Sequence record: PQ159479 | Source of the DNA: Escherichia phage Henu4_2 | Strand: one strand, 5' to 3' | DNA length: 50,260 nucleotides | Part shown: positions 31,403 to 35,835 of the stretch, in pieces | Numbering within the stretch: the stretch's first letter is position 1 | How the letters are laid out: each line of letters begins with the position of its first letter | Notes under the pieces: generated by a model | The model's database searches: none | Told to the model about the DNA's origin: nothing | The model's input: the letters and a program-made list of their open reading frames with translations, nothing else | Translations under genes and position numbers: made by a program

Positions 31403-31425
31403 AAAGGGGCTTACGCCCCTTTTTC
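31403..31425 (+). terminator. rho-independent terminator after ssb
   Basis: AAAGGGGC-TTAC-GCCCCTTT + TT. Confidence 0.7.
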
Positions 31426-31664
31426 ACTTTCTTTGATACCCAAAACAGCAATTACCTTAACTGCGATCCGGCTTGCAAGTTCAAGCTGTTGAGCGTTAAG
31501 CGTTCCGGTATTCATGATAGACAACAGTCCAGGCATAGAGCCAAGAGCTTTAAAATCAGTAAAGGCTGATTTCATAATATCCATTTGTTGATGACCATCA
31601 TTCACAATCGCTTGTGCGATTTATTTTTGTAATAGATATTGGCTAACTGTAAATAATATGTAAA

Positions 31665-31690
31665 TAAAAAAGGGAGGCGTTTCGCCTCCC
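31665..31690 (-). terminator. terminator for the minus-strand tail fibre gene
   Basis: GGGAGGCG-TTT-CGCCTCCC, T-run on the minus strand. Confidence 0.7.
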
Positions 31691-31717
31691 TTTGTATTAT
31701 GGTAGTTCTGGAATTGT

Positions 31718-34009
31718 TTAAGCACTTCCGTTAAGCATTGATTTTACAATGTTTTTCAGTTCGTCTAACTCATTGCGTAATGTGTTAATTTCCTCCTGTT
31801 GCCTTGCAATTGTTTCATTTTGCTTATCAGAATCATCAATCATTTCATTGATTGCGTTAACCAAAAGAGCGGTAACGCCGTTATAGTTAACACCTAAAAT
31901 CTCACTATCATCAGATACTTTATAAACAGATTCCGGTAAAACCGTTTGCACATCTTGAGCTATTACACCAGCTTCCTCAGAGTAGAAAGAATATTCATCC
32001 TCAATTAGATTGTTTCTCTTGAAGTAAGTGTAACCTTTAATTGATTTAACTTTCTCCTTTGCTGTTTTAATTTCTTTTAATTGAGCCTTTAGGCGAATAT
32101 CGGATGTGCTAATCCAACTAGCGGCTGTTGCATTACCATTGGAAGCAAATCCAAACTCACCACCACCAACCAGAATCCTTTGAAAAGGAGATCCATCTTC
32201 ATAAATAACAATGTCAGAAGCGCAAGCATGTTGATCACCCCACCTTGTAACTTTCCATATGTTAGCAGCAGCGCCCCTTGTGTTTAGTTCAACCATTAAA
32301 CCACAGGCTCTATTCCTCCAATCAACATGAGCGCCAGCACCAACTACGCCAGATATAAATGATGAAGCATCACCATTCCTTACTCCTTGAACATAAGCAA
32401 ACCTACCAGATTCCACAACCCAAGAATTTAAAGTTCTATATAACGCAACTTCTGATGGTGTCCATGCAAAAATGTTTTGACCATTAGAAACAGCTTGAAT
32501 TACACCGTCGCTACTCCATCTCAATCCAGTGTCAGGATCACCAATCGTGATCGAGTAATCACCAAACGTTGATACTACATCGGGAGGCAGTAACATCAAT
32601 CGATTATCAGATCTTGCTATCCTGTACCATCCACCCCAAGAGCCAGCATTGCAAATTACTCCCCATTTATTACCGTTCATTGCTGTTGCAACAATATTAC
32701 CGTACTCAACATGACCACTTGCATTTCTACCGTGTACATGTAACTCAAACATCCACCATCCAGAGGCTTCAGGCGGTAAGTATGTTGCAAGATCACCGCA
32801 AGAGTAATAACCGCTTTCTGCGTATGTTGACATAAACCCAAGAACGTTTGAATTATTAGGGATGCCAATTGCTTGACCGCCAACAGGAGTATTCAAGTTC
32901 TTTCTTGCTCCAACATCACTTGTTGCACCAGTTCCGCCCTGTTGAATTCCAAGAGGAATCCAGCCACCTCCAGCATCAGTCCAAACACCCCAGCCATTAT
33001 CATTATTTATAGTGATTCTAAGTGGAGAATTGCCTGGCGCATACATCATAGTTTCAGTTGCTGATTGCCTGAAACGCTCAATCCCAAAGTTTATCTTTGC
33101 ACCTTCTACGTTTTCAGCACCAGTACCGCCAGCACCAATAGAAAGCGCAGATGTGCTGTTATTTTCATTACGCGCAACGCGCCATTCCCCATTGTTAGCG
33201 ATCCGTAATTCATAAGTCCATGCAGGATTACGAAAAGAATTATAAGCGCCAGCATATTGATCTTTTACAGAATTAACAGCCTCAACTTTTAGCGCCTCCC
33301 TTGCAAGGTCTTTGTTTGCAAGATCATTAAGGTTTTGATCCTTATGCAGAAGATTTTCAGGCTGTACCTGTTGCGCCCATTGGCGAGCTTCATCACGCGC
33401 GTCTAACGCTTCATTTTTAATTCCGGTTATCTCAGTAACGGCAGAATCTTTAATCTGTTGCGTTTGGTTTTTTATTGCGTCCGTGTCGGCCTTAATCTGA
33501 TTGGTTTCAGAAACAGCGGCATTTTTAATCTGTTGAGTTTCAGAAACGGCGGAATCCTTAATTGTTTGCGTGTCGCTTTTTAATTGTTCTGTCGCGGCTC
33601 GGTCTGCATCAGTTTTTTGAGCGGAAGCCTCAGCGCGAGCAACAAGATCCTGTAATGTTTTTAAATCAAAGTTTTTGAAAAATTCAAGCGCTTCCTCAAT
33701 AACAGTTTCTTTACTTTGGTAATAGCGCAGAGTTTCCGCAACATCTTGCGCCATTCCATCTACCGTTAAAGAGTCATTCAACAGGATCACATAATTTCCG
33801 TTTTCTACTGGCTCGCCGTCAGTCTGGATCGCTTTCATTTCCGTGTCGCTTACAATATCGCTAATCACAGCCAATTTAAGAGGCGATGTGAGAAATACGA
33901 TTGTTGCGCCAGTGCGGATAAGAGAAAGAGGCTCACGCCATTTTGTGCCAGTACCAGTAATAACGCCTTGCGCGTCCATTGCAGCCGTACCAGTGCGATA
34001 TAAAGCCAT
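31718..34009 (-). CDS. tail fibre with C-terminal intramolecular chaperone (peptidase S74) domain
   Basis: C-terminus TSDIRLK...GYTYF...GVIAQDVQTVLPESV typical of S74 autoproteolytic chaperone; Gly/Trp-rich beta region; coiled-coil repeats. Confidence 0.85.
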   Translation of the reverse strand: MALYRTGTAAMDAQGVITGTGTKWREPLSLIRTGATIVFLTSPLKLAVISDIVSDTEMKAIQTDGEPVENGNYVILLNDSLTVDGMAQDVAETLRYYQSKETVIEEALEFFKNFDLKTLQDLVARAEASAQKTDADRAATEQLKSDTQTIKDSAVSETQQIKNAAVSETNQIKADTDAIKNQTQQIKDSAVTEITGIKNEALDARDEARQWAQQVQPENLLHKDQNLNDLANKDLAREALKVEAVNSVKDQYAGAYNSFRNPAWTYELRIANNGEWRVARNENNSTSALSIGAGGTGAENVEGAKINFGIERFRQSATETMMYAPGNSPLRITINNDNGWGVWTDAGGGWIPLGIQQGGTGATSDVGARKNLNTPVGGQAIGIPNNSNVLGFMSTYAESGYYSCGDLATYLPPEASGWWMFELHVHGRNASGHVEYGNIVATAMNGNKWGVICNAGSWGGWYRIARSDNRLMLLPPDVVSTFGDYSITIGDPDTGLRWSSDGVIQAVSNGQNIFAWTPSEVALYRTLNSWVVESGRFAYVQGVRNGDASSFISGVVGAGAHVDWRNRACGLMVELNTRGAAANIWKVTRWGDQHACASDIVIYEDGSPFQRILVGGGEFGFASNGNATAASWISTSDIRLKAQLKEIKTAKEKVKSIKGYTYFKRNNLIEDEYSFYSEEAGVIAQDVQTVLPESVYKVSDDSEILGVNYNGVTALLVNAINEMIDDSDKQNETIARQQEEINTLRNELDELKNIVKSMLNGSA
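33410..33575 (-). repeat. in-frame ~33-bp tandem repeats inside the tail fibre gene
   Basis: repeated TTTCAGAAACRGCGGMATYYTTAATYKKTTG units encoding SAVSETxQIKN-like 11-aa repeats. Confidence 0.5.
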
Positions 34010-34074
34010 AATTACACCTCATTTTATTCATTGAAACAGTGTAGTGATTATGCGATATTGCTATGTTACATGCA

Positions 34075-34100
34075 ATAAAAAACCCCGCCTTAGCGGGGTT
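34075..34100 (-). terminator. terminator after primase gene (minus strand)
   Basis: AACCCCGC-CTTA-GCGGGGTT with T-run on the minus strand. Confidence 0.7.
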
Positions 34101-34164
34101 CGTCAACGACAACGAGAAATCAATGAAACAGATTCATCGAAAAGTGTTAGTAGCAGGATGAATA

Positions 34165-35091
34165 TTATAATAAGTCACTTGCCTTGTAAAGCCTCCGCTC
34201 TATTCCATTTTTGAATTTACCGTTAACTGGTAACATTACGTCTAATTCTCGATCATCAGCAGCAATCAAAGTATCGCGATCATTAGCATGGCACACAACG
34301 CGCATTTTGCGATCTCCTTTGTATCTGTATGCAACAATTTCAAGATTTGAAGGTGAAAAACACGCCCATACTTCTTGCCCCGTCGCCAGGTGTATATGTT
34401 GCGCATCAATCCAATCAACGCAAAGGTAAATTGTTTTGTCAGTCTTGCCAGTTACCGCAACGCTTCCGCGCGTGTAATCTTTCGCGTAAAAACTGCTTTT
34501 ACCTTCCTCATTGACGAAAAGAATATTGCACATGTCATCATCCAATTCATCACTATGCACCAGGTGGCAAGGAATAGCGTGTATATGCTCGCAATATCCA
34601 TTGTCATGAGTTTTTACGCCAACTTGATACGATTCGCCGTCTAATGGATAAAACGCCTCAAAAACGCTTAGGTTTGTTATTTCCATGCGTTCAGTTTTAT
34701 CCATCACCTCAACACATTTTTCATGAGGTGCTTGCGATCCGAAATTGTAACCGGAATCACGTTTTGCCGCTTTGTTAGCCTTGTTGACAACCTCAACCGG
34801 AACCAGGTTTAACCATTCGCCTAGCGTGTCGATTGCTTCACTGTAATTTTCACCACGTATGCGCATGAACAATCCGATCCCTGAATCATTCCCACATTGG
34901 TTGCAAATGTTGCCGCCGTCGCCTTTCTCGTTGATTTTGTCAGTCCAACGAAAGCGATCTTTACCGCCGCAATAAGGGCATGGTTGGTGTTTGCCGTTAA
35001 AGGTTAATTGAGGAATATCGCAAAGTTTCATTAATGCCGCTTGCCACATGCCGCGCATTTTTGGGATCACTTCTTCTTTTTGATAATGCAT
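34165..35091 (-). CDS. DNA primase (zinc ribbon + TOPRIM-like)
   Basis: Zn-ribbon HQPCPYCGGKDRFRW...CNQCG. Confidence 0.75.
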   Translation of the reverse strand: MHYQKEEVIPKMRGMWQAALMKLCDIPQLTFNGKHQPCPYCGGKDRFRWTDKINEKGDGGNICNQCGNDSGIGLFMRIRGENYSEAIDTLGEWLNLVPVEVVNKANKAAKRDSGYNFGSQAPHEKCVEVMDKTERMEITNLSVFEAFYPLDGESYQVGVKTHDNGYCEHIHAIPCHLVHSDELDDDMCNILFVNEEGKSSFYAKDYTRGSVAVTGKTDKTIYLCVDWIDAQHIHLATGQEVWACFSPSNLEIVAYRYKGDRKMRVVCHANDRDTLIAADDRELDVMLPVNGKFKNGIERRLYKASDLL

Positions 35092-35149
35092 TTCTCAATC
35101 TCCAAATAAAAAACCTGGCACGATGATAAACCATGCCAGGCCGGAATTT

Positions 35150-35758
35150 TTAGCAATCAGTGCTATCGACGGAAATCACAACGCGTTTCTTCTGATTGGC
35201 TTCCTTTGCTTTGCGCCGTTCTTCTTTCTCCTTGTCGCGTTCAGCCTTGCGCCGCGCTTTCTCCTTCTCGCGTTCTTCTGGAGTCATAGACCGTAACGGA
35301 TCGTAAGGCCGGACAAATCCCCTTGCTTCCGCTTCCTCTTTGGTTACAAATCGCATCAGCTTTCTGTTGCTGCAACGATTCTCTAATGGTTTTCCGTTAT
35401 TATCAAACTTGATATCTGGACGGCAATATGAAGCGCGAAAACCGTTAAAACCTTTGCGGCGGTAATCTTTCTGGATCAGTTCAGCGCCTTTAGTTGAAAT
35501 CATGCCGCGCTCTTTCCATCCCCATACTGTTTTAAGGTTAACGCCAATTTCACGCGCCAGGGCAGCGCAACCGCCGTAAGCGTTGACAACTTCATCAAGA
35601 CGCGCTTTTAATCCGGCTCTTACTTCTTCCTTTAATACAAGATAACCGCTAACAGGTGCGCGACGTTTGCGATCTTTACCACGTCTTACGCCGTTGTTAC
35701 CATTGATTGTGCGTTTGTCGATTTCGCCAGTTGAGGCGGCAATTTTGATTTCGCTCAT
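35150..35758 (-). CDS. HTH DNA-binding protein with polybasic C-terminal tail (putative regulator)
   Basis: HTH-like CAALAREIGVNLKTVWGWKERG; C-terminal KR/E-rich; start at ATG 35758 with RBS AGGTGA. Confidence 0.55.
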   Translation of the reverse strand: MSEIKIAASTGEIDKRTINGNNGVRRGKDRKRRAPVSGYLVLKEEVRAGLKARLDEVVNAYGGCAALAREIGVNLKTVWGWKERGMISTKGAELIQKDYRRKGFNGFRASYCRPDIKFDNNGKPLENRCSNRKLMRFVTKEEAEARGFVRPYDPLRSMTPEEREKEKARRKAERDKEKEERRKAKEANQKKRVVISVDSTDC

Positions 35759-35768
35759 ATTTTCACCT

Positions 35769-35811
35769 ATAGCACTTTTTGCTAAAAAACTTGATTGAGT
35801 TTGTGTATGAT
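35769..35811 (+). promoter_or_regulatory. conserved early element copy 9 upstream of helicase operon
   Basis: ATAGCACTTTTTGCTAAAA then TATGAT. Confidence 0.5.
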
Positions 35812-35835
35812 ATGCCGCAAATGGCATTTAGTCAA
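35807..35835 (-). promoter_or_regulatory. sigma70 promoter for HTH gene (TTGACT-17-TATCAT), -10 overlapping the plus-strand -10
   Basis: minus-strand TTGACT (35835-35830), 17-nt spacer, TATCAT (35812-35807). Confidence 0.6.

What the first reader, a model, noticed from the sequence alone, without database searches (positions are those of the whole stretch)
31718..34009. Tail fibre on the opposite strand with an S74 chaperone domain and internal 33-bp repeats
The only structural gene on the minus strand encodes a 763-aa fibre with a C-terminal autoproteolytic intramolecular-chaperone domain and its own promoter and terminator. Being a separate transcription unit makes it a swappable host-range module. 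In-frame ~33-bp tandem repeats at 33410-33575 could expand or contract.
Basis: partly seen in the sequence, partly recalled or inferred. Interest (0 to 1): 0.45.

Follow-up and report, generated by a model that had tools for sequence, protein, structure and literature searches.

The report
Known T1-like phage lateral tail fibre
This is the ordinary side (lateral) tail fibre gene of a T1/Tls-like Salmonella phage: the self-cleaving folding domain and the short in-frame repeats are both real, and fibres of this build are already described in this phage family, so it is a sound annotation, not a discovery.

Summary
The 763-aa minus-strand ORF (31718-34009) is real. It is the lateral tail fibre of a Tlsvirus (Drexlerviridae) phage about 98% identical to Salmonella phages YSP2 and KKP 3830. 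Pfam Peptidase_S74 is supported (E 3.9e-11, aa 636-695). The catalytic Ser636/Lys641 pair is invariant in 64 homologues and aligns with the proven MyRF/endosialidase dyad. Predicted products are a 68.6-kDa fibre and a 14.5-kDa released chaperone.

The 33-bp repeats are real but modest: two tandem 11-codon units plus degenerate ones inside a 99-residue helical shaft. Copy number does vary among relatives (0-4 units). A precise 84-bp (28-aa) deletion between 14-bp direct repeats is also present here.

The gene is a mosaic. Its anchor and shaft match E. coli phage 011D2, its distal part matches YSP2, and that distal part is 67% identical to T5-like Salmonella phage fibres. Swapping is therefore intragenic and does not depend on the transcription unit.

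Flanking terminators are strong; a dedicated promoter is only weakly indicated. The locus, its diversity and S74-type fibres in this family are already published, and a fragment of the YSP2 orthologue has been tested for binding. The receptor is unresolved. Interest is low.

The parts
31718..34009 (-). Lateral tail fibre gene, 763 aa (83.1 kDa precursor), stop codon included
   Evidence: ORF list. PHROG tail-fibre families, best E 9e-274. 98.7% nt identity to YSP2 gene 35, annotated as tail fibre. Conserved position between ssb and primase in Tlsvirus genomes.
33665..34009 (-). N-terminal virion-attachment (anchor) domain, aa 1-115
   Evidence: 97-100% identical in nearly all Drexlerviridae homologues, but 19% identical in T5-like fibres. 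aa 1-192 match the N-termini of solved Klebsiella-phage depolymerases 7LZJ/7VYV/7VZ3 at E ~1e-50. Beta-rich in the AF2 model.
33368..33664 (-). Alpha-helical coiled-coil shaft, aa 116-214
   Evidence: AF2 predicts a single continuous helix over 116-214. Residue autocorrelation peaks at lags 11, 7 and 18.
33497..33562 (-). Two tandem 33-bp (11-codon) units, IKDSAVSETQQ / IKNAAVSETNQ. This is the copy-number-variable site.
   Evidence: TRF period 33. 26/33 identical, and 0 of 500 codon shuffles reach the self-match. Relatives carry 0-4 units at this site.
33389..33496 (-). Two heptads (IKADTDA, IKNQTQQ) followed by two degenerate 11-codon units (IKDSAVTEITG, IKNEALDARDE)
   Evidence: In-frame reading of the sequence.
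33387..33400 (-). Single remaining copy of the 14-bp direct repeat GCGCGTGATGAAGC, marking the junction of an 84-bp (28-aa) in-frame deletion
   Evidence: DNA alignments with YSP2, KKP 3830, DanielBernoulli and 011D2 show the 84 bp flanked by two copies of this repeat. Tls has the same short form.
33110..33367 (-). Conserved linker, aa 215-300 (HKDQNLNDLANKDLAREALKV...). It is shared with T5-like fibres and is the probable recombination joint.
   Evidence: 83-98% identical to the Epseptimavirus 983-aa fibres and to most Drexlerviridae homologues. The switch from 011D2-like to YSP2-like sequence falls here.
32105..33109 (-). Variable distal, presumed receptor-binding region, aa 301-635. It includes a confidently modelled beta domain (aa ~380-470, modelled with confidence out to ~530) and a T-even gp37-like motif (aa 481-521).
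   Evidence: Lowest conservation in the protein. Identity over aa 381-470 is bimodal, 81-96% or 14-18%. pLDDT is 85-92. Match to S16 gp37 (PDB 6F45). Foldseek top hits are phage and pyocin fibres.
31721..32104 (-). C-terminal intramolecular chaperone / Peptidase_S74 domain, aa 636-763. Predicted cleavage is before Ser636 (codon 32104-32102); Lys641 codon is 32089-32087.
   Evidence: Pfam PF13884. S636, D637, I638, R639 and K641 are invariant in 64 homologues. They align to the S16 gp37 SDRRIK motif and to MyRF S587/K592, equivalent to endoNF S911/K916. A C-terminal helix spans 709-760.
31669..31693 (-). Intrinsic terminator immediately after the fibre stop codon
   Evidence: -18.8 kcal/mol, z -6.7.
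34080..34101 (-). Intrinsic terminator between the primase and fibre genes
   Evidence: The stem is kept through compensatory changes in relatives.
34047..34075 (-). Weak promoter-like element TTGCAT-17 nt-CATAAT in a conserved AT-rich block (inferred, not demonstrated)
   Evidence: Read from the sequence. Conserved in close relatives. Below the threshold of the consensus scan.

Best explanation
This gene encodes the lateral (side) tail fibre of a Tls-like siphovirus. It has five parts.
1. An N-terminal domain of about 115 aa docks the trimer on the tail.
2. A ~100-residue alpha-helical coiled coil acts as a spacer. It is built from 11- and 7-residue repeats.
3. A conserved linker follows.
4. 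A beta-rich distal region contacts a host surface receptor reversibly. This speeds adsorption before the central J-type tip engages the terminal receptor.
5. The last 128 aa form an intramolecular chaperone. It nucleates trimer folding of the distal part, then removes itself by Ser636/Lys641 autoproteolysis. The products would be a 68.6-kDa mature fibre and a 14.5-kDa fragment.

Host-range change comes from homologous recombination at conserved intragenic joints: the anchor, the aa 215-300 linker and the S74 domain. This recombination shuffles distal cassettes among T1-like and T5-like phages.

Shaft length changes in register-preserving quanta of 11 aa, or 14/28 aa. The likely route is unequal crossover or slippage between the periodic repeats and short direct repeats.

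What is shown: gene, domains, dyad conservation, mosaicism, indel polymorphism and terminators.
What is inferred: cleavage, trimeric state, receptor class, timing of expression, and any effect of shaft length.
For: - Identity and synteny.
- Fibre families.
- S74 HMM above cutoff.
- Invariant SDIRxK motif in 64 homologues. It aligns to the experimentally proven MyRF S587/K592 = endoNF S911/K916 dyad and to S16 gp37.
- Continuous helix over aa 116-214, a confident beta domain and a C-terminal helix.
- Fibre-like fold hits only.
- Mosaic pattern.
- 67% identity of aa 212-763 to T5-like 983-aa fibres.
- Shaft segment lengths are 66/77/88 and 83/94/105/116/127 aa, in steps of 11, plus one 14-aa deletion.
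- The extra unit of KKP 3830 is a hybrid of two neighbouring units.
- The 84-bp deletion is bounded by 14-bp direct repeats.
- Literature: the Drexlerviridae lateral-fibre locus is conserved only at its 5' end (PMC8594841). Drexlerviridae fibres with an autocleaving chaperone domain use O-antigen (PMC12090712). A fragment of the YSP2 orthologue competes with phage adsorption (PMC11231377). In-frame indels arise in a T5-like fibre during experimental evolution (PMC12541327).
Against: - No experiment shows cleavage of this protein or its orthologue. The YSP2 construct (aa 1-501) lacked the S74 domain.
- The AF2 monomer model of the S74 region has low confidence.
- The one direct binding study reports binding to an outer-membrane-protein preparation and not to LPS. 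This conflicts with the O-antigen expectation drawn from related families.
- No promoter passes the scan.
- Shaft length ranges from 66 to 127 aa among fibres that carry the same distal allele. Length may therefore be selectively neutral.
Confidence: 0.85

Rival explanations
1. The fibre binds an outer-membrane protein, not O-antigen or another LPS glycan. It would then act more like a T-even long-fibre adhesin than like the T5 L-shaped fibre.
For: - The YSP2 fragment 35Q (aa 1-501, 99% identical to the window protein apart from the indels) bound an OMP preparation and not LPS in ELISA. It also competed with phage adsorption (PMC11231377).
- aa 481-521 and the S74 domain resemble gp37 of the S16 long tail fibre.
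Against: - The 35Q fragment lacks the last 300 aa, including the chaperone needed for correct trimer folding.
- The OMP preparation was crude. The proteinase-K effect on whole phage can be explained by the central tip's protein receptor.
- Homologous distal regions in T5-like Salmonella phages belong to fibres that the literature treats as O-antigen binders (PMC12541327; PMC8594841).
- Drexlerviridae fibres with this kind of chaperone domain depend on O-antigen in Cronobacter.
- No gp38-like adhesin gene lies downstream.
Confidence: 0.3
2. The fibre has no dedicated promoter. It is expressed by partial read-through of the upstream terminators from the promoter in front of the regulator gene (35835-35807), so it belongs to a terminator-attenuated operon of regulator, primase and fibre.
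For: - The only minus-strand sigma-70 site passing the scan in 31-36.2 kb that lies upstream of a gene start is at 35835-35807 (10/12 matches).
- Each of the four minus-strand genes is followed by a hairpin terminator.
- The candidate fibre promoter matches only 3/6 in its -35 element.
Against: - The two upstream hairpins are strong and followed by T-runs.
- A 45-nt AT-rich block with a 5/6 match to the -10 element is conserved between the terminator and the Shine-Dalgarno.
- TAGC(C)AATATC recurs only downstream of the two terminators that precede minus-strand genes (3 of 100 shuffles).
- A structural gene co-transcribed with primase would have awkward timing.
Confidence: 0.25
3. The short shaft of this isolate (one unit fewer than YSP2 and the 84-bp deletion) is an assembly or sequencing artefact, not a real allele.
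For: - The exact 763-aa protein is not on record in the assembly collection.
- Repeats can in principle collapse during assembly.
Against: - Each state is seen independently elsewhere. The two-unit arrangement is nucleotide-identical in phage 011D2. The 84-bp-deleted form occurs in Tls and in Brooksby.
- The units are only ~79% identical, so they are not prone to collapse.
- The frame is preserved in all cases.
Confidence: 0.04

Closest known systems
Lateral tail fibre of Drexlerviridae (Tlsvirus), specifically gene 35 of Salmonella phage YSP2 ('35Q') and its orthologue in KKP 3830
   Same: Same locus and orientation, between ssb and primase. Identity is 98.7% nt and 99% aa. The anchor, linker, distal region and S74 domain are the same.
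   Different: The window allele has 2 units of 11 aa, against 3 (YSP2) or 4 (KKP 3830), and lacks a 28-aa shaft segment. Its 5' third is closer to E. coli phage 011D2.
Lateral tail fibres (983 aa) of T5-like Epseptimavirus Salmonella phages (e.g. SH9, Seafire, SP76)
   Same: aa 212-763 are 67% identical overall and 98% identical over aa 221-300. This covers the linker, the beta domain and the S74 domain.
   Different: The N-terminal ~420 aa are unrelated: a different anchor and a long Ala/Ser-rich heptad shaft with AKTSETN repeats. The phage family and attachment site differ.
C-terminal intramolecular chaperone domain (Peptidase_S74) of K1F endosialidase, T5 pb1, S16 gp37 and eukaryotic MyRF
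   Same: HMM membership, the SDxRxK Ser-Lys dyad, and a C-terminal position followed by a long helix.
   Different: Cleavage has not been shown for this protein. What lies upstream is a fibre-type beta region, not an enzymatic beta-helix. Direct sequence similarity to endoNF and T5 pb1 was too low for phmmer to detect.
Klebsiella-phage capsule depolymerase tailspikes, PDB 7LZJ / 7VYV / 7VZ3
   Same: Homologous N-terminal anchor and start of the coiled coil, aa 1-192, E ~1e-50. The same docking module carries a different business end.
   Different: Those proteins carry a depolymerase domain. No enzymatic domain was detected here by Pfam or fold search.
Cronobacter Drexlerviridae fibres, CRES7/CRES9 gp28
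   Same: A Drexlerviridae fibre with a coiled coil, a beta-rich distal part and an autocleaving chaperone domain. Host specificity is set by distal residues and the receptor is O-antigen (PMC12090712).
   Different: Different host and distal sequence. I did not compare the sequences directly.

Membership tests
Peptidase_S74 / intramolecular chaperone auto-processing domain | Match to the family HMM above the curated threshold | tested here: met
   PF13884: 43.5 bits against a cutoff of 22, E 3.9e-11, aa 636-695 covering profile positions 1-57 of 58. The domain is also precomputed on nearly all of the 120 listed homologues.
Peptidase_S74 / intramolecular chaperone auto-processing domain | Catalytic Ser-Lys dyad, with Ser at the scissile bond and Lys five residues later | tested here: met
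   S636-D-I-R-L-K641. S636, D637, I638, R639 and K641 are invariant in 64 homologues. The motif aligns to MyRF (S587A)DLRAK592 and to S16 gp37 SDRRIK. MyRF S587/K592 are equivalent to endoNF S911/K916 and are essential for cleavage (PMC8326128).
Peptidase_S74 / intramolecular chaperone auto-processing domain | C-terminal position after a trimeric beta-rich stalk, ending in a helix that forms the trimerising coiled coil | tested here: met
   The domain is the last 128 aa. AF2 predicts beta strands up to aa 629 and a helix over 709-760. The trimeric state itself is inferred.
Peptidase_S74 / intramolecular chaperone auto-processing domain | Autoproteolytic release of the domain from the mature protein | not testable with these tools
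   This needs protein work. The only published construct of the orthologue (aa 1-501) omitted the domain.
Drexlerviridae lateral tail fibre | Conserved far-N-terminal attachment region with divergent remainder | tested here: met
   aa 1-115 are 97-100% identical in most family homologues, while aa 301-635 fall to 5-60%. This matches the description in PMC8594841.
Drexlerviridae lateral tail fibre | Syntenic position between the recombination/ssb genes and the primase, transcribed opposite to the main structural block | tested here: met
   Window map against the annotated YSP2, DanielBernoulli and 011D2 loci.
Drexlerviridae lateral tail fibre | Physical component of the virion that mediates reversible primary adsorption | not testable with these tools
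   Only indirect evidence exists. YSP2 mass spectrometry listed a tail fibre protein, but the sample also contained non-structural proteins. The 35Q fragment competed with phage adsorption.
Slipped-strand contingency (hypermutable tandem-repeat) locus | Many near-identical short tandem units giving high-frequency reversible length change | tested here: not met
   Only 2.4 copies at 80% match. The two units are 26/33 identical. All length variants are in frame, so there is no on/off switching.
Tailspike / capsule or O-antigen depolymerase | Enzymatic beta-helix or other glycanase domain | tested here: not met
   No such Pfam family was found. The best fold matches are non-enzymatic fibres: R1 pyocin fibre 6CL5, S16 gp37 and phi812 baseplate fibres. 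The models have low overall confidence, so this is a weak negative.

The most novel reading that the evidence does not exclude
The coiled-coil shaft may be a quantised length-tuning device. Unequal recombination adds or removes register-preserving blocks (11 aa = about 1.6 nm; 14 or 28 aa = about 2-4 nm). The distance between the tail and the receptor-binding tip could then be matched to the thickness of the host O-antigen or capsule layer. The window phage, with one of the shorter shafts found in the survey (77 aa against a mode of 105-116), would be an adapted variant and not a neutral one.
Probability: 0.15. Interest if true: 0.45.

Novelty: already known. Interest (0 to 1): 0.18.

Why it matters
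The practical value is correct annotation. The gene can be labelled a lateral tail fibre with an S74 intramolecular chaperone, predicted to be cleaved before Ser636. That prediction tells anyone expressing it for Salmonella detection or host-range engineering to keep the C-terminal 128 aa in the construct; the published 35Q fragment did not.

The mosaic map identifies usable graft points: the aa 215-300 linker and the S74 domain. These are shared between T1-like and T5-like Salmonella phages.

The register-preserving shaft indels are a tidy small observation and could be followed up in evolution experiments. None of this changes current understanding of phage fibres.

Tried and rejected
1. Sigma-70 consensus scan for a fibre promoter. 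Nothing passed between the terminator and the ATG. A search for the conserved upstream block elsewhere in the window gave no convincing recurrence. Only a short TAGC(C)AATATC motif recurs, twice (3 of 100 shuffles), which is too weak to call a promoter element.
2. AF2 monomer models of the full protein (pLDDT 64.8, pTM 0.28) and of aa 256-635 (pLDDT 59.9). Only the shaft helix and the beta domain (aa ~380-530 in the full-length model, aa ~380-470 in the fragment model) are confident. Foldseek against the PDB gave only weak fibre-like hits (TM <= 0.2 for long matches), so no receptor class could be inferred.
3. phmmer of the S74 region against PDB sequences found S16 gp37 and MyRF, but not endoNF or T5 pb1. 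Equivalence to those proteins therefore rests on the MyRF paper.
4. Exact-sequence look-up of the protein in public assemblies found nothing on record.
5. Considered and rejected: depolymerase/tailspike (no enzymatic domain); contingency locus (repeats too few and too divergent, always in frame); a gp38-type separate adhesin (the only downstream ORF is a conserved 64-aa protein of unknown function, 95% identical to the one next to ssb in DanielBernoulli).
6. One paper on T5-like Salmonella long-fibre engineering (PMC9469705) was not held. The related paper I did read concerns pb3/pb4, not this fibre.
Full report
WHAT IS THERE
The window is a complete or nearly complete genome of a T1/Tls-like siphovirus. 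The first 25 kb are 98.2-98.5% identical to Salmonella phages KKP 3830, YSP2 and GJL01. YSP2 is classified as Drexlerviridae, Tempevirinae, Tlsvirus. The ORF at 31718-34009 on the minus strand is real: ATG start, 763 aa, preceded by a GAGGTG ribosome-binding site.

The gene sits where Tlsvirus genomes carry their lateral tail fibre gene. On one side are the plus-strand recombination/ssb genes; on the other are the minus-strand primase and regulator genes. This matches the annotated loci of YSP2, DanielBernoulli (Bas08) and 011D2. The head, tail, tape-measure and J genes are all on the plus strand. The other minus-strand ORFs I scanned are primase, a transcriptional regulator, a helicase, a methyltransferase and proteins of unknown function.

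DOMAINS
- Pfam gives Peptidase_S74 at aa 636-695: 43.5 bits against a cutoff of 22, E 3.9e-11.
- In an alignment of 64 homologues, S636, D637, I638, R639 and K641 are invariant.
- phmmer aligns this SDIRLK motif to SDRRIK of S16 gp37 (PDB 6F45) and to (S587A)DLRAK592 of the MyRF autocleavage domain.
- The MyRF paper shows that S587 and K592 are essential for cleavage and correspond to S911 and K916 of the K1F endosialidase (PMC8326128).
- The predicted cut before Ser636 would give a 68.6-kDa fibre and a 14.5-kDa fragment.
- The N-terminal 192 aa match the N-termini of three solved Klebsiella-phage depolymerases at E ~1e-50. This is a shared docking module.
- The AF2 monomer model is poor overall (pLDDT 64.8). 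It does give one uninterrupted helix over aa 116-214, a confident beta domain around aa 380-530 and a C-terminal helix over aa 709-760.
- Fold searches return only other fibres, led by the R1 pyocin fibre and S16 gp37, and only weakly.
- No enzymatic domain was found.

THE REPEATS
TRF reports 2.4 copies of a 33-bp unit at 33490-33566 with 80% matches. Read in frame, the shaft contains, in order:
- IKDSAVSETQQ (33562-33530)
- IKNAAVSETNQ (33529-33497)
- two heptads, IKADTDA and IKNQTQQ (33496-33455)
- IKDSAVTEITG and IKNEALDARDE (33454-33389)

This is the strongest in-frame tandem self-match in the gene, and no codon shuffle out of 500 reached it. The residue autocorrelation peaks at 11, 7 and 18. 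I read those periods, from general coiled-coil knowledge, as a mixed 11-residue and 7-residue coiled coil.

- Against 99%-identical proteins, the window has 2 units where YSP2 has 3 and KKP 3830 has 4.
- Across about 100 family members, the segment between EQLK and HKDQNL has lengths 66/77/88 and 83/94/105/116/127 aa. These are steps of exactly 11, corresponding to 0-4 units.
- The extra unit of KKP 3830 is the 5' part of one YSP2 unit joined to the 3' part of its neighbour. That is what unequal crossover or slippage would produce.

The window also lacks 84 bp (28 aa, four heptads). The deletion lies precisely between two copies of a 14-bp direct repeat, GCGCGTGATGAAGC. Tls and Brooksby carry the same short form on different unit-number backgrounds, and phage Punny lacks 14 aa. 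All indels are multiples of 11 or 7 residues, so the helical register is kept.

Shaft length varies from 66 to 127 aa among fibres that share the same distal allele. I therefore see no evidence that length is tuned to the receptor. In-frame shaft indels, including a 28-aa insertion, do arise in a T5-like Salmonella phage fibre during experimental evolution (PMC12541327).

MODULE EXCHANGE
Megablast shows many phages matching only the first ~900 nt of the gene, and some matching both ends but not the middle. A segment-by-segment identity table shows at least five independently assorting pieces:
- aa 1-115: nearly fixed in Drexlerviridae and unrelated in T5-like fibres.
- aa 215-300: conserved in both groups.
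- aa 381-470: bimodal, ~85% or ~15% identical.
- aa 471-635: variable.
- The S74 domain: occurs as alleles of about 65%, 89% or 97% identity.

aa 212-763 are 67% identical to the 983-aa lateral fibres of many T5-like Epseptimavirus Salmonella phages, and 98% identical over aa 221-300.

At the DNA level the window gene is itself a chimera. Nucleotides 1 to ~780 differ from E. coli phage 011D2 by four substitutions plus the 84-bp deletion. Nucleotides ~780 to 2292 are 99-100% identical to YSP2.

The gene is therefore a host-range module, but the exchange joints are inside it. The downstream 64-aa ORF (31411-31605) belongs to the conserved flank: it is 95% identical to the gene next to ssb in DanielBernoulli. 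This pattern is already published for the family. The BASEL paper states that the Drexlerviridae lateral-fibre locus is highly diverse and related only at the far N-terminus (PMC8594841).

TRANSCRIPTION
Strong hairpin-plus-T-run terminators lie just after the fibre stop (31693-31669) and between primase and fibre (34101-34080). The latter keeps its stem through compensatory changes in relatives.

The same is true of every gene in this minus-strand block: regulator, primase, fibre and the 64-aa ORF. No sigma-70 site passes the scan upstream of the fibre. The best candidate is TTGCAT-17 nt-CATAAT at 34075-34047, in a block conserved among close relatives. A dedicated promoter is plausible but unproven. 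Read-through from the promoter at 35835-35807 is a live alternative.

RECEPTOR
This is unresolved. The literature expects O-antigen binding, by analogy with T5-like fibres and with Cronobacter Drexlerviridae whose fibres carry an autocleaving chaperone domain. The only direct study used the YSP2 fragment 35Q, which by its primers is aa 1-501 and so lacks the chaperone. It reported binding to an outer-membrane-protein preparation and not to LPS, and competition with phage adsorption (PMC11231377). I regard that evidence as weak, because the construct is truncated and the preparations were crude, but it cannot be dismissed.

VERDICT

Everything essential is already known: the locus, its diversity, S74-type fibres in this family, and the orthologue itself. 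The exact 763-aa allele is not on record. It is a new combination of known pieces: a 011D2-like short shaft with a further 28-aa deletion, joined to a YSP2-like tip. The register-preserving shaft polymorphism is a neat descriptive point that I did not find described in the papers I read, but it is minor.

Noticed in passing
window 31403-35142 (minus strand): Each of the four consecutive minus-strand genes (regulator, primase, fibre, 64-aa ORF) is followed by its own terminator-like hairpin: 35142-35112, 34101-34080, 31693-31669 and 31422-31403. The last is bidirectional and shared with the convergent ssb gene. Within the scanned 31.0-36.2 kb stretch, the only promoter-like site that lies upstream of one of these genes is at 35835-35807. 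This suggests expression graded by terminator read-through.
   Followed up: partly
window 34054-34063 and 31635-31645 (minus strand): The motif TAGC(C)AATATC occurs only twice in the 50-kb window. Each copy lies just downstream of a terminator and 30-55 nt upstream of a minus-strand gene start (the fibre and the 64-aa ORF). 3 of 100 shuffles give two or more matches. It could be a shared promoter or regulator site.
   Followed up: partly
window 31411-31605 (minus strand): A conserved 64-aa ORF of unknown function (phrog_7239) lies between the fibre and ssb. It is 95% identical to the C-terminal 64 aa of an 85-aa protein in phage DanielBernoulli. The version here starts at GTG or an internal ATG and appears N-terminally shorter.
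   Followed up: partly
L003 22070-23915 (phage DanielBernoulli): In this relative the fibre is shorter (639 aa). Three extra genes follow it before the conserved small ORF, the first annotated as a putative sugar-binding protein. The variable cassette can therefore hold several genes where the window has a single S74-type fibre.
   Followed up: no
L018 2205-5156 (T5-like, 111.6-kb contig): The 983-aa T5-like fibre that shares the distal two-thirds with the window protein has its own long Ala/Ser-rich shaft with exact AKTSETN heptad tandem repeats. Family members are 955-990 aa long, which hints at the same kind of shaft-length polymorphism.
   Followed up: no
window 35150-35827 (minus strand): The longest ORF for the putative transcriptional regulator is 225 aa, but relatives annotate 202 aa (609 nt). 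The true start is probably an internal ATG downstream of the promoter-like site at 35835-35807.
   Followed up: no
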